In this document: positions 15,650-59,955 of the stretch, in pieces | Layout of the letters: the number at the start of each line of letters is the position of its first letter | How positions within the stretch are numbered: position 1 is the stretch's first letter | Source of the DNA: Octopus sinensis | Lineage: Eukaryota | Direction of reading: 5' to 3' | Assembly (NCBI RefSeq): GCF_006345805.1 | Contig: NC_043004.1 | Span: forward strand, 32,426,001 to 32,490,000 | Length of the DNA stretch: 64,000 nt | Program-made: the position numbers and the translations under genes | The notes under the pieces: model-generated | The model's database searches: none | Told to the model about the DNA's origin: nothing | Seen by the model: only the letters and a program-made list of their open reading frames with translations

Positions 15650-16161
15650 GTGTTTAATATTTATAATATATGAATTTGAATCACTTAAAAATATATTATG
15701 CTTTATGTCATGAAACAGTTTGATCTCAACATTGAGCCACTCCAAACAGCTTTTCAATTTCTATTTAACATGTTACTTTATCATTGAATCATTCCATTTC
15801 TCATCTGACCCACTTAGTTACCAGGTAACACAGAACCTAGCTTTAGATATAACATACAGTTATGATTGTTGGAACTCACAACTTCCCTCTCAACTGGCTT
15901 CTGTGCCAATGGCACATAAAAGTGCACCATTCAAGTGCTAGTAGGGTGTCCATGCTAGTAGGGTGCCAAGAGCACCATTTGAGCGTGATCGTTGCCAGAT
16001 ACATACATATATTTTCAGGAGTGTTCTATTGTTTCCCTTTTCTGTATAGTTGTCCCAAAAGCAGCGACAATTGCCTCAGTAATTGTAGATGCTATGGGAC
16101 TGTGTAGTAAACAGTTTCTTAATTGAATCAATTGGTGTCTCTAAAGTGTCAAAATCTATGA

Positions 16162-16850
16162 TCTCTTATTATAAAAGGCAGATTTTATCTGCCTCCCTTT
16201 GGGAGTTGTAGAAATCTACAATATAGGATTTCTTCAATTACAATTTACCTAGCATTTTTAAGAGTACAATGCATCGCGTCATGCCAGGTCCAGTTTTTAA
16301 AATTTAAACTCCAATTAAGCAAAATTTACAGAAAACTCACATTCTGGTGTGTGTGTCAAATGCTTTTCTTAGTCTGGTTTACACCACACGCAAACGCACA
16401 CACACAGTGGGCAACGAATAAAATGAAAGTAATTCCCTTACTGTAGTGAGTGATTCTTTCACTCTGCCTCCCACTTCCTCTTTCCACACATAGACACACA
16501 AATATATAAATAAAATTGTAAGCTAACGTGCCTGTGTGTGAGTGTGTGTGTGTGTGTGTGTGCGCGTGTGTATGTGTGTGAGGGTGTGTGTGTGTGTGTG
16601 TGTGTGTGCGTGTGCGTGAGTGTGTGACAGGAAAGTTTTTTACGACGAATATAACACCTATATCCAAGTAGCAGAAAGATAAGACAGTAAGGTGTGATTT
16701 GAGGGAGATTTGGCTGCTATTTCTACCATGTTACCAGGTCTAGCTACCATGTAGAGGTCCCCCTCATTGGCTCATATATATATACATACATAAGACAGTA
16801 AGGTGTGATTTGAGGGAGATTTGGCTGCTGTTTCTACCAGGTCTGTTAGG
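16162..16850 (+). mobile_element. Possible Helitron-derived element
   Basis: 5' end a|tctcttattataaaag resembles the Helitron start at 17624. The 3' end is not resolved. Confidence 0.4.
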
Positions 16851-17202
16851 CCATCTCATGTAAACTCAAGCTTTCTCATGCCTTGAACATAAGACCAAAG
16901 CAGAGAATGTATTCTTTTATTCTGCTTTTTCCAGCCATTGGTCTGTGGCCATGCTGGGGCAATGCCTTGAAGAATTGTAGTTTAATGAATCAACTCCAGT
17001 TTCATTTTTGTAAGCATTGTACTTATTCTATCTGTTTCCTTTGTCAAACCACTAGGTGACAGGGATGTAAACAAACCAACATTCGTTGTCAAGCAGTGGT
17101 GGAGGACAATCACAAACACAGACACGCACACACACACACATACATGCATACACATATACACACATACATACATATATATATATATGTGTGTGTATATATA
17201 TA

Positions 17203-17461
17203 TTGCAGCGTGGAAGGTGTTTGTAAGCCATTTAAGAAACACACAAAAACTGTTACATTCACTTCAACATTTAAATTTAATTTGCCAAAATATTTTCGTC
17301 GCTTTCAGACCGCAACCTGTTCACTGACAAAAATATCGTGCTAACAGGTCGCGGCCTCAAAGCGATGAAAATATTTTGACAAATTAAATTTAAATGTTGA
17401 AGTGAATCTAACGGTTTTTGTGTGTTTCTTAAATGGCTTATAAACACCTTCAACGCTGCAA
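17203..17461. repeat. Fold-back inverted repeat (~120-bp arms) containing a hammerhead variant
   Basis: Arms ttgcagcg...cctgtt and aacagg...cgctgcaa, separated by a ~21-nt spacer. Confidence 0.9.
17281..17331 (-). ncRNA. Hammerhead variant with G3-C8 core
   Basis: Minus strand: tttgtca GTGAACA g gttgc-ggtctgaaa-gcgac GAAA atat TT tggcaaa. Confidence 0.6.
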
Positions 17462-17623
17462 CTGTTTTCGTTCCAGCACACGATCTCAGATCAAGTCACT
17501 TGCTATGCAAGTACATCTCTGTAACTATATATATATTTATATTTATATATATATGTATATTGGTAAAAACAGTAAGATAACAAAAGAAAGAAAGAGACCT
17601 CAATATTATGTAAATAGAGGAAA

Positions 17624-18018
17624 TCTTTATATATAAAAGTGAGGTTGTGTGTCTGTCTCCTACGATTTACATTCCTAACTACTCCCACATTTTGCGGTGC
17701 AGTTTAACCAAAACCGGGTATCTTATAGTCGTGATTCATATCGAGACCGTCTGGGTATTAGCGCGCGTCTACGATGAGTCTACGATTTAAAAAAAAATTT
17801 ACCATCAATTTTTCCCATTTTTAATCCATTTTTTACATATATAAGGGAAGTAACTCTCTAAAATTTATTATTAAATCTCAGAACGTAAAAAGCTACAGTA
17901 ACACCCCTCCCCCTTTGTGGTTAGCCATATTGAGATGGCTATTATACTTTACATCTCTAAAAATGCTTATATAATTATTTCCCTTACAAACCCGAGCAAC
18001 GCCGGGCGATACTGCTAG
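17624..18018 (+). mobile_element. Non-autonomous Helitron
   Basis: A|TC start, subterminal hairpin cccgagcaacgccggg, CTAG|T end. A near-identical copy lies at 50575-50977. Confidence 0.9.
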
Positions 18019-18479
18019 TTATTTATAAAAGGGAGTCCATTACATTTTTTAAGATGTCAAGATACCTTTGTATTTTGAAAGAGAGCCTCTTCATGCCAGA
18101 TTGTTGGGGGGGGCTTCCTGTATTGAAAGCTGCATAGTCTTCATAGCAGGAGACCCCCAATATCTGTTAGATGCCCAGAGTAATTACCCCATCTGCCCCC
18201 CCCCCCCCATAAATCCAGCCCTGCAATGTGCATGCTGGTTTTTAGTCTACTTATATATTGCATTCACATCTTTTTTGCATTATCATCAGGGTTCTTGAAT
18301 ACTTTGAGACTTTAGTTTTCTCAGCATAGCTGATGTGAGTGGCTGACTGTATGACAGGGAATATGTCTGAAAGAGCCACCACAGATGGGAGTGATTTTAA
18401 TACAGTTCCCCGATGGACCCTGCTTAGAGTTGATGACTTCACAGAGAGCACTATTGGTGCTGTTGTCTGGCTCTAATAT

Positions 18480-19110
18480 TTAAAAAAAATCTTGTAGTCA
18501 TTCCCATACTTTTTCAGTTTTACCAAGGTCAGACAGTTTGTGACATTTATTGAAGGTCTTTATAAAACTGAGGTATATCACATCCACATTTAAATTGCTG
18601 AACCATTGTTTCAATAACCAGTTACAATGCTATAGCAGCTATGTAAGGCAACTCTTCCTGGATGGAAGCCAATCTGCATGTCAGTGACCAAGTCATTTTC
18701 TTCTAGGAACATGATCAGCTTTCTTATGACAATTCATTCCATGACTTTGCTGGTATGTGAGATCAGAGAGCTAGGCCTGTAATTTTTAGCATCTGCTTTG
18801 TCTTCTGTTTTATGGATTGGTCATATTATACCTCTTTTTAACATTTTAGGAAATTTGCCACATGTAAGGAAACTTGGAAAGGCTTTGTGAGAGCTTTCTT
18901 GCATGTCTTTAAAAGATGAACTAAAAAAATTCTCAGGGCCCATTGCTGATTTCAAGTTCATCTCATCAATGGCTGATATTACATCCTCTTCTTTTATGTC
19001 AACTTATTAATTTATTTGCACACCTCCAAATGGGGAGGTGAGAATACTTTGAAATTGTATATTTAGTATTTCACTTACCCTTATGGGGTCTATAGTTAGT
19101 GAGATATTTT
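18480..19110 (-). mobile_element. CR1/L2-like LINE RT fragment
   Basis: Degenerate YRPxSL..TSKVME and QIGF motifs on the minus strand. Confidence 0.6.
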
Positions 19111-20106: not shown

Positions 20107-20298
20107 TATATCACCGTGACCGACCAGGCAATCAGATGATGCTCATCGCTGGTCACAATGTGCTTCGCATTGTTTTGGCCTTCAAATGAAGCCACCCCGC
20201 TGGCTAAACGAGCAGGTCAACAGAAGAAAGAGTGAGAGAAAGTTGTGGCGAAAGAGTACAGCAGAGATCGCCACCACCCCTTGCTGGAGCCTCGTGGA

Positions 20299-21920
20299 AT
20301 ATTGATCTTACTTTTACGTTTAGACTCTTTCGAAAAAGCACTGCGGTACCACCACCACCCATGTTTGGCAGACAGGGAGAAAAATAAATGTCGAATTGTC
20401 CGCCAAACATGGACGCGAGGGCTCGCGGGTTACTGAGTCTAGTTTTACTGATAGCTACTATATCAACGTTCAGTGACTTGATGTCATTTAGAAGATAACC
20501 TTGCCTGGAAGCTGACGCCAAGCCACGCACATTCACATAAGCTAATTTAAGCATAATTGATGGTTGAAAATTTGTGTTTCACACACAACAGTGAAAGAAA
20601 CGAGAGGGAAGGTTACTTATTCGTTTCGAAAGTTTGAGTAGTTTCCTCCTCTTTTGAAATGTCTTTGAGGAAGTTTTTAAAAAGTTTTTTTTGACAAATA
20701 TTTCTGGCCCCAACCCGACCACATTTGGAAAGAGGGTTTTGAGTGTGTGGTGCTGCGTTTGTGTGACGTGTACTATTTTTATGTGTGTCGGTGGTGTAGT
20801 GCGTGGATGGTTGTTCAGTTTAAAGTCATCTTCACAAATGTCTGTGTTAGATGCGATGTAGTTCATTAGTTTTGTATTTTCTGTGTCTATTGCTGTTAGT
20901 TGTTTGTGTGTTTTTGCGGTGTCGTTGTTGGTTTGATTGTGTAAGGGGCTGTCAGGAGTTATATATCTCCCTGCTTTACTTGCATTTGCTTATTTGGTGT
21001 TTTTTTATCCTTTCCTTTTAAACCCCTGTGGCTATTTGCCATTCTGTCGAACTTTCGTCGTTAGAGGAAAAGTTTGACGAATCAGAAGCATTTGCTTCTA
21101 TATGTGTGTTTGTAGAAAGTGTCGTTGTTTTGTATGGTATGTGTGTTGTTGGGGTATTAGGGGCAGAATTTGTCTTTTCTTCATTGGTATTTGTTTTCTT
21201 GGTTGTTGGTCTGTCTTTTGATGTTGGTCGTGGTGTTGTTTCTCTAGTTGGTTGCGATGTCGGAGGTAATTGTGATGGTGTTGTTTCTCTTCTTGGGGAT
21301 GTGGTTGGGGAGGGAGAAACAGTTTTTGCATCGTCTGCTGTTTTTCCTGTATCTTTACTTATTGTATTGTTGTCGATTGTTTGTGCTGTGTTTACTGTCT
21401 TTTGCGTTGAAGGTGGTGTGGGTAGCAGGGGTTTTCTTCCAGGTTTTGGTAGTGGTTGTTGCTGTTTTTTATATTTTTAGCAGCAGTTGGGCAATCAGAT
21501 TTGAGGTGTGCCTCACTGTTGCACAAATAACATCTTGGCCTCCTGCCCTCCACCACTACATACAATATGTGGTCTTCCGCTAGCTGGCTGCTGGTTGGTA
21601 AATTATTCATCGCTTCTTGATTGATGTGAAGTAAGATCTCGAGCTTTTTACCAGCCCAATTTTCCTCTGGAATGTCAGCGATTTCTAAAATATTTGCTTC
21701 TTTTATATCGAACCAGATGGCCGATGCTAGCCACTGTGTTTCCACTTCTGGAGGCACATTTCTTTTATTGTTATTTTCGTTACTCTGCGCCCAAGATAGC
21801 TAGGTACCATTGTTACCTGGTCTGTGTGCAGAGTAAGCGTCGAAAATTATTTTGCTAATTCTTCCGTTTGGAAGCGAACTTGAACGGTAGCAAATTTATG
21901 CCACCAATTCACATAGTCTT
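20299..21920 (-). mobile_element. Tx1/L1-clade LINE 5' half (ORF1 zinc knuckle plus start of ORF2 endonuclease)
   Basis: ORF1 VEGRRPRCYLCNSEAHLKSDC (CCHC). ORF2 MLKLAYVNVRGL...DIVAISKT...GGGTAVLFRK (APE endonuclease N-terminus). Confidence 0.8.
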
Positions 21921-39774: not shown

Positions 39775-40860
39775 CATCACTATCGAGAGCATCCAGCGAA
39801 TAGCTAACTCCATCCACCAAAGCATTGTAGTAACAGTAGATTACCCTAATAAGAACTCAACTACAAGCTACTGGTTTTAGACACTGAACTCTAGCTGGAA
39901 ACTAGGAATAACAAGATGCAAATTCTCTATCCACACTATTCCAAAGCTATGGCTCCCATATATCCGGTCCACCGGAACACAGCAATTACACATAGTATCA
40001 AGTTCAAAAGCGAACTTGGTAAGGGTGAGAAGAAACGCGTCCCGCATGTGCGACCCAACAAAATTAGAGAGGCACATACAGCACTTCATTCACCGCATGC
40101 AGTTTTCTGGCTACAGTCAAAGAGACAGGATAAGGGTGAACAATGGAGCTATGGCTAAATTCAAGACCATATTGGAGAATGTTGGACACGGGATTTTCCT
40201 CCTAAACAGAAGCAAATCCTGGAACAGCATAGAAAGAACTAAGAAGATAGGTAAGGCCAACTTATGATATGGCAGCAAAAAATACCGGACTGTTATGTTC
40301 GTCGATGCTACCCCTGGAGACGAACTAGCATATCATTTTAGAATAGCCCTAGGTAAACCGAATTTACGGATAAAAGAAGTGAAAGGTTAGGTACCTCCAT
40401 AAAATCCCTGATTTGTAGAACATCCCAATTTGAGAGAATTCCTTGTACTGATAGGAACTATATAGTGTGTAGAGTAAGTCCACAAATAAGCTGCAAAACT
40501 AAGAATGCAGTCTATAGTATAAGGTGTACAGAGCGACGGTGCAGAAGCAACAACGACGTATTTTGAAGAGACAGCCCGTAGCATAAGTAAGAGGATAAGT
40601 GACCATTGGCGGGAACTCAGAGAGGAGAAAACTCGCCAGTGCTATACCAACATGCTAAACTAGAGCATGGGAGTTCGATAGATAATATATATGTTAGGAG
40701 GCACAACACTCAGACAGATTACGGAGGCCACACACATAATGGAAATTAGACCGAATCTCAACAGAAAACGTGAATGGCATAATAACACCCCTACTCCATC
40801 ACACCCCGCAACTCGACGCTTAAGGACAGAATAAGACAGATAAATAAAATGAATAAATAA
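39775..40860 (+). mobile_element. Penelope-like element fragment (second clade)
   Basis: IQRIANSIHQSIVVTVDYP, ILYPHYSKAMA, RMQFSGYS and a decayed GIY-YIG region. Confidence 0.65.
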
Positions 40861-42765: not shown

Positions 42766-43935
42766 TAATGGAATTAATAAAAATTGTTTGTAATTCAGGT
42801 TCAGAGCTTGGGTTTAGTCAATACATCGACCCAGTGCTTGTCTGGTACTTTATTGCATCGACCTCATGAAAGGTTAAGACGGCCCTGTACGGATTTGAAC
42901 AGAGACCCTAAAGAGACGGAACAAGGACTGATCGCAATCTTGTTTCAATTCTCATTAATCTTATGACACCAATGCCCTTTAGAAAGGCATGAACGCCACA
43001 AAGTCCGTTTGTATTTCTTTTAAAATACCAGGCTATCAGATGTTGCTGCACATCGCTGGTCACAATGCGCTTCGCATTGTTTTAGCCTCCAAACGACGCC
43101 ACCCCGCTGGCTAAGCGAGCAGGTCAACAGAAGAAAGAGTGAGAGAAAGTTGTGGCGAAAGAGTACAGCAGGGTGTGCTACCACCCCTTCCGGGGCCTCG
43201 TGGAGCTTTAGGTGTTTTCGCTCAATAAACACTCACAACGCCCGGTCTGGGAATCGAAACCGCGATCCTACGACTGCGAGTCCGCTGCCCTAACCACTGG
43301 GCCTTTGCGCCTCCACCTTTTAAAATATACGTACTAATATATAGCTAATGGTCGTAGAGTAGCCAAAGCATAAGTTCCGATGGGTTGGACATGTAAGGTT
43401 CACAGTCAACACAGGGACCGAGTGATATCCAAGAGATCGGAAAGGGCCACTTGGAAGACCCCCACCCACCAGACGATGAGAAGACGATTTAGTCAGTCAG
43501 TTTGGAAAAAAAATAAAACAAAAAAAAGAAGAACGGTGCAATGAAGACAGAATTGGAATCGCATTGTGACCAGCGGTGTATAACAGCATCTGATGGTCTG
43601 GTCAATATTGTGGTAATGTGATATAAATAGTCATCTTAGTGTCATTGACTGAAATAATAACCTTTATCTTTTGACTTCTGTTGCTCCACCTGATATATCA
43701 GGAAGAGTGTGGTTAGCCAAACAGACGATTAGACTGCGGCCATGCTGGGGCACTGCTTTGATGAATTCTTAGTCGAATAAATCGACCCCAGTACTTTTTT
43801 TTGTTTTTAAAAGCCTAGTACTTATTCCATCGATCGCTCTTGCCGAACAGTTAAGTTACGGGGATGTAAACACACCAACACCGCTTGTCAGACGGTGGTG
43901 GGGAACAAACACAGACACAGACAGACAGACAGACA

Positions 43936-43972
<37 letters not shown>

Positions 43973-48091: not shown

Positions 48092-48126
<35 letters not shown>

Positions 48127-48379
48127 TCCCCCACCACTGTTTGACAACCGGTGTTAGTTTGTTTACGTCCCCGTAACTTAGAGGTTCTGCGAAAGAGACC
48201 GATAGAATAAGTATCCAGCTTTGGTAAAGAAGAAAACAAAAAGGCATTAAGTAATGGGAGCGATTCATTCGACTAGACTACTCCAAGGTGGTGTTCCAGC
48301 ATGGCCGCAGTGTAATGATTGAAACGAACGAAAGATAGTTTATGTTGACGTCTTATGGCATACCTGAATGCATCCATAC

Positions 48380-50495: not shown

Positions 50496-51090
50496 ACAAG
50501 GGTGTATTGAAAAGTTCCTGGTTTGGAGCAAAAGAAAATACAGGAGGATCAGTTATTTATGATTTTATTCAAGACTAGCAGTATCGCCCGGCGTTGCTCG
50601 GGTTTGTAAGGGAAATAACTATATAAAGCATTTTTAAAGATGTAAAGTATAATAGCCATCTCAATATGGCTAACCACAAAGGGGGGGGGGTGTTACTGTA
50701 GCTTTTTACGTTCTGAGATTTAATAATACATTTTTAGAGAGTTACTTCCCTTATATAACAGCAAAAAAAAAATGCATTAAAAATGGGGAAAAATGATGGT
50801 AAATTTTTTTTTAAATCGTAGACTCATCGTAGACGCGCGCTAATACCCAGAAGGGCTCGATATGAATCACGACTATAAGATACCCGCTTTTGGTTACACT
50901 GCACGGCAAAATGTGGGAGTAGTTAGGAATCTAAATCGTAGGAGACAGACACACAACTTCACTTTTATATATAAAGATATTCTCCTCTCAGATTCACACA
51001 CTTATTGCACTGGTCCTTCAGTTTTTCTAAGCCCTGTAAAAGAACTCGGATGATTGGGTCTCCAATCAGGCCTTTCGCAATTCCCTTTCG
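50496..51090. mobile_element. Mariner-like end fragment interrupted by a Helitron
   Basis: caagggtgtattgaaaagttcc terminus. The sequence resumes as ttattcaaga|tattctcctctcagattcacacac after the insert. Confidence 0.6.
50575..50977 (-). mobile_element. Non-autonomous Helitron (copy of 17624-18018)
   Basis: Same TC...hairpin...CTAG structure, inserted at AT with no target duplication. Confidence 0.9.
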
Positions 51091-59479: not shown

Positions 59480-59544
59480 ATATGTATGTATATATATGTA
59501 TATATATATGTGGTATATATATATGTATATATACTCTCTTTCTT

Positions 59545-59742
59545 TTTCTTTTACTTGTTTCAGTCATTTGACTGCGGCCATGCTGGAGCACCACCTTTAG
59601 TCGAGCAAGTCGACCCCGGGACTTATTTTTTGTAAGCCCAGTACTTATTCTATCGGTCTTTTTTGCCGAACCGCTAAGTGACGGGGACGTAAACACACCA
59701 GCATCGGTTGTCAAGCAAGGCTAGGGGGACAAACACAGACAT

Positions 59743-59797
<55 letters not shown>

Positions 59798-59955
59798 TAC
59801 GACAGGCTTCTTTCAGTTTCCGTCTACCAAATTCACTCACAAGGCATTGGTCGGCCCGGGGCTATAGCAGAAGACACTTGCCCAAGATGCCACGCAGTGG
59901 GACTGAACCCGGAACCATGTAGTTGGTAAGCAAGCTACTTACCACACAACCACTC
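59545..59955 (-). mobile_element. SINE with internal microsatellite (family also at 43730-44125, 47950-48335, 16925-17120, 6725-7340)
   Basis: Shared gactgcggccatgctgg, ggggacgtaaacacacc and gactgaacccggaacc blocks. Confidence 0.8.

What the first reader, a model, noticed from the sequence alone, without database searches (positions are those of the whole stretch)
17203..17461. Hammerhead ribozyme with swapped catalytic pair (G3-C8) inside a fold-back element
Seen: the minus strand of 17281-17331 has full type I hammerhead geometry: 7-bp helix I (tttgtca/tggcaaa), helix II (gttgc/gcgac; gtcgc in the other arm), GAAA, palindromic helix III (aatatt) and a UH site. The core reads GUGAACA instead of CUGANGA, and the other arm independently shows ..AACA. 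Known: C3 and G8 form a Watson-Crick pair in the active fold, and reciprocal swaps can rescue activity. Inference: this is a compensated natural variant family that standard CUGANGA searches would miss.
Basis: partly seen in the sequence, partly recalled or inferred. Interest (0 to 1): 0.75.

Follow-up and report, generated by a model that had tools for sequence, protein, structure and literature searches.

The report
Swapped-core Penelope hammerhead riding a Helitron
This hairpin is two back-to-back end-pieces of a Penelope-type jumping gene, copied about 600 times inside a second mobile element; the parent family carries thousands of hammerhead-shaped RNA motifs whose central base pair is flipped (G-C instead of C-G), likely a slow self-cutting variant, though cutting is untested and this copy is predicted to be silenced by its own hairpin.

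Summary
The fold-back and the G3-C8 hammerhead geometry are real (0 comparable hits in 25.6 Mb of shuffles). The fold-back is a head-to-head pair of pseudo-LTR stubs of a Penelope-like element (RT, Cys linker, GIY-YIG; 1042-aa open frame elsewhere in the genome). It travels as cargo in a 1.86-kb non-autonomous Helitron (592 copies). The parent family keeps G3-C8 in 4,826 of 5,276 exact matches, with no compensated subfamily. Covariation appears between families: nine families show C-G (5), U-A (3) or G-C (1), never a mismatch. Sister family E has nearly the same scaffold with canonical CUGAAGA. Subfamily changes spare the core and helices (0 of 42 breaking versus 13 of 105 outside). Against activity: cleavage is untested; copy 5' ends cluster at an apparent transcription start with an extra, likely cap-derived G and are not enriched at the cut site; this copy is predicted buried by 54 kcal/mol. 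The second arm lacks G3 and is not independent support. I found G3-C8 in print only as an engineered partial rescue; Lünse 2017 was unavailable. The scan found this variant before on other DNA, this genome included. Verdict: new variant of a known kind.

The parts
16162..18018 (+). Non-autonomous Helitron carrying the fold-back as cargo (1857 bp here; about 1.8-2.2 kb in other copies)
   Evidence: Shared ends across the top-hit copies; A before 5' TC in 23 of 28 and T after 3' CTAG in 27 of 28; head-to-tail tandems; same ends on a RepHel-coding Helitron, L377/L378; 592 matches to the cargo junction
17991..18018 (+). Helitron 3' end: GC-rich hairpin 17991-18006 and terminal CTAG 18015-18018
17203..17342 (-). 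Left arm: Penelope pLTR stub from about 6 nt after the family's common 5' end to the first 3' end site; holds the complete hammerhead motif
   Evidence: Maps to positions 7-145 of the parent pLTR at 89%
17343..17524 (+). Right arm: pLTR stub cut inside the core (starts at A6), running to the second 3' end site; 17462-17524 is the unpaired ~63-nt tail
   Evidence: Maps to positions 27-207 of the parent pLTR at 91%; family 3' ends pile near +124 and +184 from G3
17281..17331 (-). Minimal type I hammerhead motif: helix I 7 bp, helix II 5 bp, palindromic helix III AAUAUU, predicted cut after U17 (between 17288 and 17287)
17317..17324 (-). Variant core strand G3 U4 G5 A6 A7 C8 A9 plus one extra G before G10.1
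   Evidence: family counts
16679..16842 (+). Internal direct repeat of the Helitron (53-nt copies 111 nt apart; number varies among copies)

Best explanation
The fold-back is a head-to-head pair of pseudo-LTR stubs of a Penelope-like retrotransposon, carried in about 600 copies of a non-autonomous Helitron, and its hammerhead motif is the parent family's fixed, compensated G3-C8 variant, likely a slow, dimer- or protein-assisted self-cleaver in the parent but predicted silent in this copy. Mechanism. Shown: the same segment is the 3' pLTR of an element coding RT, a Cys linker and GIY-YIG; family insertions have two fixed 3' ends about 60 nt apart, are often inverted pairs, and mostly begin 17-26 nt upstream of G3, often with one untemplated G. 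Inferred: a capped transcript starts at AGATG; the element's protein nicks AT-rich DNA and starts reverse transcription at either internal site; two cDNAs joined head-to-head gave this hairpin in a TA run; the surrounding Helitron then spread it by rolling-circle transposition, with no role for the ribozyme. Inferred for the parent: the G3-C8 pair keeps the active-site geometry, so the motif cuts weakly when its palindromic helix III pairs with a second copy or when the element's protein binds, while most templates are copied uncut.
For: Parent element: GIY-YIG ORF upstream of the motif (Pfam E 3.6e-5), 722-aa and 1042-aa open frames, CQSNCAVC linker, RVT_1 in 4 of 17 aligned relatives. PLE insertion anatomy: 40 of 60 loci hold both orientations; 3' ends at two sites; matches PMC8557442 and PMC11167929 (passages and section read). 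Helitron. Compensation: nine families hold C-G 5, U-A 3, G-C 1 (two rows); helix II 100% paired with 4 of 5 pairs changed on both sides; covariation score 0.62 against 0.08-0.15 for slid controls. A scan with positions 3-9 left free put a Watson-Crick 3-8 core on top in 7 of 11 elements and gave no good hit in 4. Family E shares the scaffold with a canonical core. Subfamily-level changes in 72 copies picked without using the motif: 1 of 42 constrained sites (keeps a U-G pair) against 13 of 105 others, p 0.05; 0 of 42 breaking, p 0.01. The parent context folds helices I and II at MFE, constraint cost 1.3 kcal/mol. Engineered C3G/G8C partly rescues a PLE hammerhead (PMC11167929). Extra G before AGATG in 16 of 31 junctions against 13% background, p 4e-7.
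Against: No cleavage was measured. Copies starting at the predicted cut site are not enriched: 39 matches, 17 of them starting CAC (mostly helix-I fold-backs) and 5 starting AAA (mostly local deletions or arm joints), leaving 17 against 20 and 7 at two control positions. No compensated subfamily exists inside the family (none of the first 100 of 162 non-G3 matches is C3-G8 or U3-A8; 2 C3-G8 matches genome-wide, one from another family). Helix I is only 66% paired across families in a machine alignment with 3 of 10 rows partly misaligned, and the rows were picked as hammerhead-like. The double-hammerhead fold of the natural 84-nt tandem is about 3 kcal/mol worse than two monomers and 8-13 worse than MFE. 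The subfamily test rests on few sites that are not independent. G8C costs 10^5-fold and C3G restores only part (PMC8495972, passage). The cap reading of the extra G is an inference from junction letters.
Confidence: 0.78

Rival explanations
1. The motif is a hammerhead descendant that no longer cuts. Its fold is kept because the PLE protein binds it, or because it lies in an internal promoter just downstream of the transcription start; the 3-8 pairing is inherited or structural.
For: Thousands of copies include the uncut motif and start at the apparent cap site; no excess at the cut site. In PAc, catalytic mutants do not affect insertion and no reads end at the cut site (PMC11167929). Family C has C at position 9.
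Against: A double change that keeps a pair between distant core positions, plus U-A in three other families and no mismatch in nine, is what catalysis predicts and a DNA promoter element does not. G12, A13, A14, U4, G5, A6 and the UH site are kept.
Confidence: 0.17
2. The 259-bp hairpin is a MITE or fold-back DNA transposon with long terminal inverted repeats, and the hammerhead is a chance pattern.
For: 119-nt inverted arms in TA-rich flanks; hundreds of 98-99% identical copies.
Against: The copies share about 1 kb and 0.5 kb of flank up to Helitron ends. The arms are asymmetric (63-nt tail, core truncation) and map on a PLE pLTR. 0 hits in 25.6 Mb of shuffles.
Confidence: 0.02
3. The core letters are fixed by a short reading frame starting at the ATG at the pLTR 5' end, not by RNA structure.
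For: An ATG lies 3 nt into the transcript and an in-frame run of 19-24 codons crosses the motif in most subfamilies; in PAc the ORF starts inside the hammerhead.
Against: ORF-linked subfamilies differ by 1-nt indels before helix I and in loop II; the peptide is 7, 19 or 22-24 residues with different tails.
Confidence: 0.03

Closest known systems
Minimal type I hammerheads of metazoan Penelope-like elements (Cervera and de la Pena 2014, PMC4209133; text parts 1-2 of 4 and supplement 2 parts 1-2 of 3 read)
   Same: Position in the pLTR; one unpaired base between A9 and G10.1; G10.1-C11.1; short palindromic helix III implying a dimer; opposite-strand pairs 100-700 bp apart; a U3-A8 covariant is described there.
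   Different: G3-C8 core. None of the Fig. S3 alignment rows I read has G at position 3 (C3-G8, or U3-A8 in three rows). The extra base is G, where the consensus is H.
PAc (Poseidon of Anolis) hammerhead and insertion mechanism (Frangieh et al. 2024, PMC11167929; passages and part 2 of the main section read)
   Same: Two RT start sites bounding a tail; AT-rich targets; uncut RNA as main template; the engineered C3G/G8C double mutant partly active and protein-assisted.
   Different: There G3-C8 is a lab construct; here it is the natural family state. The parent has the Cys linker of Neptune/Nematis-type PLEs and a 60-63 nt tail rather than 30-40.
Natural core variants of hammerheads (Perreault et al. 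2011, PMC3088659; passages read)
   Same: Natural 3-8 covariation (U3-A8).
   Different: Only U3-A8 is named in the passages read; no G3-C8.
Non-autonomous Helitrons with captured fragments (defining features recalled, not from a paper read here)
   Same: 5' TC, 3' hairpin plus CTAG, A-T target, tandem copies, an autonomous partner with the same ends.
   Different: The cargo includes an inverted PLE stub with a hammerhead motif; nothing suggests the Helitron uses it.

Membership tests
Minimal type I PLE hammerhead | Literal core CUGANGA | tested here: not met
   GUGAACA; family state in 4,826 of 5,276 exact matches
Minimal type I PLE hammerhead | Watson-Crick pair between positions 3 and 8 | tested here: met
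   G-C here; C-G 5, U-A 3 in eight related families, 0 mismatches
Minimal type I PLE hammerhead | U4 G5 A6 A9, G12 A13 A14, A15.1-U16.1, H17 | tested here: met
Minimal type I PLE hammerhead | Helices I and II, G10.1-C11.1, one extra base after A9, palindromic helix III | tested here: met
   the extra base is G
Minimal type I PLE hammerhead | Located in the pLTR of a PLE | tested here: met
   About 0.9-1.0 kb after the GIY-YIG ORF in L127, L146 and L097-L126
Minimal type I PLE hammerhead | Self-cleavage after H17 | not testable with these tools
   Indirect test by genomic 5' ends shows no excess at the site
EN+ Penelope-like element | Single ORF with RT and C-terminal GIY-YIG | tested here: met
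   In the parent; no ORF part in the window copy
EN+ Penelope-like element | Inverted 5'-truncated copy and a tail at one end | tested here: met
   PMC8557442 passages
Neptune/Nematis-type PLE | Cys motif CX2-5CxxC between RT and EN | tested here: met
   CQSNCAVC at residue 593 of the L095 frame
Neptune/Nematis-type PLE | Placement in a named clade on an RT tree with reference elements | not tested
   The tree has no named reference sequences
Non-autonomous Helitron | 5' TC, 3' hairpin plus CTRR, insertion between A and T (features recalled) | tested here: met
   23 of 28 and 27 of 28; no target duplication seen by eye
Non-autonomous Helitron | Autonomous RepHel partner with the same ends | tested here: met
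   L377/L378: matching 5' end (82% over 245 bp), similar 3' end, open frame of at least 1428 aa; 1 of 8 coding Helitron regions fetched had both ends
MITE or fold-back DNA transposon | Mobile unit bounded by its inverted repeats | tested here: not met
   Shared flanks extend to Helitron ends
Non-LTR retrozyme | Head-to-tail tandem of hammerhead units | tested here: not met
   Not in the window; present elsewhere in the family, L037, 6 units at 84 nt

The most novel reading that the evidence does not exclude
G3-C8 is a naturally selected, slowed-down hammerhead: a recently active Penelope lineage flipped the active-site pair and kept it through several subfamilies and at least five coded organisms, giving a protein-gated ribozyme that cuts only a minority of transcripts, so that capped uncut pLTR RNAs are reverse-transcribed into thousands of SINE-like stubs. 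This would add the third Watson-Crick pair to those seen in nature at 3-8 and give a matched natural series (families A, B, C, E in one genome) for testing what PLE hammerheads are for.
Probability: 0.3. Interest if true: 0.65.

Novelty: new variant of a known kind. Interest (0 to 1): 0.45.

Why it matters
The C3-G8 pair of the hammerhead active site is treated as nearly invariant; natural U3-A8 is known, and I found G3-C8 in print only as an engineered partial rescue. A family with about 4,800 exact G3-C8 copies shows that core-based descriptors undercount PLE hammerheads. One genome holds related elements with C-G, U-A and G-C cores on near-identical scaffolds, a ready natural panel for the open question of whether PLE hammerheads cut in vivo and why. 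The copy ends also suggest that this family inserts mainly from capped, uncut RNA. The window copy itself is most likely inert cargo of a Helitron.

Tried and rejected
Rfam: no hammerhead hit on 16000-19000 at E up to 10; uninformative, since Rfam also misses the canonical-core motifs in L296 and L250 at gathering scores. Splice-acceptor reading of the CTAAC...TTTCTCAG|ATG site (794 matches): set aside, because solo copies carry no common upstream exon, only one extra G; a start site fits better, and splicing is not excluded. A G3-G8 intermediate subfamily: G8 is over-represented (48 of the first 100 of 288 non-C8 matches, counted by eye), but 40 fetched loci show it on all subfamily backgrounds, in one Helitron-borne copy, and often with C8 on the partner arm, so it is read as a recurrent mutation. 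An ancestral C3-G8 subfamily of the same family: only 2 matches, one being family E. Short coding frame: rejected. Expression: no RNA holder listed on record; only contigs were available, so nothing on expression or RNA ends. PDB search of the ORF: nothing. Pfam on the whole 722-aa and 1042-aa frames: no RT hit; RT rests on the YVDD and DKSG motifs and on relatives. The protein tree groups A with B and C in this genome but does not fix the order of the swap. In 4 of 11 elements the free-core scan found no good motif (family B fell under the helix I threshold; L253, L256, L257); 19 of 30 older ORF copies showed no pLTR within reach. Not held, so not read: Lünse et al. 2017, Przybilski and Hammann 2007, Martick and Scott 2006, Hammann et al. 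2012. Supplement file 1 of PMC4209133 was not searchable, and bioRxiv supplements are closed; a natural G3-C8 case could be listed in any of these.

Full report
Observation. The inverted repeat is as described: arms 17203-17321 and 17343-17461, 119 nt, 92% complementary. The minus strand from 17331 to 17281 gives helix I (7 bp), G3 U4 G5 A6 A7 C8 A9, one extra G, helix II (5 bp, closed by G10.1-C11.1), GAA, the palindrome AAUAUU and U17. A descriptor with any Watson-Crick 3-8 pair hits only this site in the window and nothing in 200 shuffles of both strands; it was written with the motif in view. The isolated 51-mer folds helices I and II at MFE.

The carrier. A search of the own genome (2.72 Gb) gave 3,177 candidates, 40 scored, at 98-100% identity. 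All 30 loci returned share flanks far beyond the hairpin, to about window 16162 and 18018. The ends are 5' TC and a 3' GC-rich hairpin plus CTAG. A precedes TC in 23 of 28 copies and T follows CTAG in 27 of 28; several copies are head-to-tail tandems. These are Helitron features (recalled). The genome holds long RepHel frames, and 1 of 8 regions fetched (L377/L378) has both matching ends around a frame of at least 1428 aa. The arm junction unique to this cargo occurs 592 times; the 30 top copies are 99.3% alike (biased by being top hits). So one PLE insertion was amplified as DNA cargo.

The parent. Copies outside the Helitron led to elements in which the same segment lies about 1 kb after a GIY-YIG frame (Pfam E 3.6e-5). 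Open frames of 722 and 1042 aa contain DKSG, YVDD, the linker CQSNCAVC and the endonuclease; 4 of 17 aligned relatives hit RVT_1. The nearest named protein is from Octopus vulgaris at 56%, and an earlier scan note on this genome also says octopus; I did not establish the species. In 60 loci taken in genome order from the first 100 matches (Helitron-borne ones and those already held were skipped), 40 hold both orientations and 3' ends pile near +124 and +184 from G3. This is the inverted-copy-plus-tail anatomy of PLEs (PMC8557442, passages) and fits the two RT start sites shown for PAc (PMC11167929). The window's arms are one cDNA of each kind.

Is the swap real and compensated? Within the family it is fixed: 5,114 exact matches have G3 and 162 do not; 288 of the G3 set lack C8, leaving 4,826 of 5,276. 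It is in 28 of 29 ORF-linked copies and in 64 of 72 copies picked without using the motif. Contigs of six runs from five coded organisms show no core letter varying at 5% or more. There is no compensated subfamily. Covariation lies between families. Sister PLEs at about 50-58% protein identity carry U3-A8 (family B, 11 of 13 motifs in 12 loci) and C3-G8 with C9 (family C) at the same place. Family E has canonical CUGAAGA on nearly the same scaffold, with an A-U for G-C exchange in helix II; its link to a PLE ORF is only partial (fragments in 6 of 30 loci). Relatives from metagenome contigs add C-G three times and U-A twice. Over ten rows from nine families the 3-8 pair is always Watson-Crick, helix II is 100% paired, and the covariation score is 0.62 against 0.08-0.15 for slid partners. 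The rows were chosen as hammerhead-like, three are partly misaligned, and helix I is only 66% paired. With positions 3-9 left free, 7 of 11 elements gave a Watson-Crick core as top hit and 4 gave no good hit. Subfamily-level substitutions fall on 1 of 42 constrained sites, keeping a U-G pair, against 13 of 105 flanking and loop sites (p 0.05; 0 breaking, p 0.01). A coding explanation fails because ORF-linked subfamilies differ in frame.

Does it cut? Not shown. In print, C3G/G8C partly restores a PLE hammerhead, which needed the element's protein and was not needed for insertion (PMC11167929); G8C alone costs 10^5-fold (PMC8495972, passage); metazoan minimal motifs cut weakly and only as multimers (PMC4209133). 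Here most short copies start 17-26 nt upstream of G3, and 16 of 31 junctions have a G before AGATG where the template has C or T (background 13%, p 4e-7). I read this as a cap copied from an uncut transcript; this is inference. Starts at the predicted cut site are not in excess: 17 after removing 17 CAC-led and 5 AAA-led matches from 39, against 20 and 7 at control sites. The natural 6-unit tandem (L037) can form the double hammerhead on paper, at about 3 kcal/mol above two monomers. In the window the long hairpin buries the motif by 54 kcal/mol, and even without the right arm a rod competes by 4-5 kcal/mol; in the parent context the cost is 1.3. No RNA evidence was available.

Literature and earlier notes. 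Searches: hammerhead with 'G3-C8' gave 1 paper, an engineered variant, data not shown; 'G3C8' 0; 'C3G' and 'G8C' 2, both engineered; 'G3 C8' 0; hammerhead, ribozyme and octopus 8 papers, 7 listed, none on this by title or abstract start. Natural U3-A8 is reported (PMC3088659, passages; PMC4209133). The Fig. S3 rows of PMC4209133 that I read show no G3. Lünse et al. 2017 on PLE hammerhead variants was not held and could already contain the case. Of the 2026 retrozyme preprint I read part 1 of 5; of PMC6765202, PMC2920678, PMC10085705 and PMC13282606, passages only. The scan had noted this variant before, in this genome and others; my reading was written before that look-up and agrees.

Verdict. 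A real, compensated G3-C8 variant of the minimal PLE hammerhead. Odds about 0.9 for homology and compensation, about 0.55 that the parent motif still cuts, under 0.1 that this copy does. It works like a PLE minimal hammerhead; it fails the literal core test, and cleavage is untested. New variant of a known kind; interest 0.45.

Noticed in passing
L037 (G000:C3:57511901-57514933), oriented 973-1445: Six head-to-tail 84-nt units, each with the whole G3-C8 motif: a natural retrozyme-like tandem in which a double hammerhead could form.
   Followed up: partly
Family-wide; C8-to-G changes outnumber C-to-T in genomic copies (48 against 38 of 100) and recur on all backgrounds, an unexplained mutation hot spot.
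   Followed up: partly
L135:3151 (family C) and L251:2497: Two related PLEs carry C instead of A at core position 9; L249 has U15.1-A16.1.
   Followed up: no
L295-L324: Family E: an abundant older element with a canonical core and A-U/G-C covariation at the base of helix I; its coding parent was not pinned down.
   Followed up: partly
window 39782-40783 +: Decayed fragment of another Penelope-like ORF (33% to the parent protein).
   Followed up: no
window 50575-50984 -: 3' 400 bp of the same Helitron family, without the cargo.
   Followed up: no
window about 20200-21800 -: Broken frames resembling a LINE (endonuclease-like and ORF1-like pieces), judged by eye.
   Followed up: no
window about 16915-17180: A repeat piece inside the Helitron that also occurs at 43728-43970, 48092-48213 and 59544-59799; probably a SINE, unclassified.
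   Followed up: no
L091/L092 (G000:C2:2023000-2042999): Five pLTR stubs spaced 2.5-3.2 kb apart with no PLE ORF between them; likely a larger tandem duplication.
   Followed up: partly
L065: The family's 3' UTR and pLTR follow a different PLE coding fragment, a possible chimera between two PLE families.
   Followed up: no
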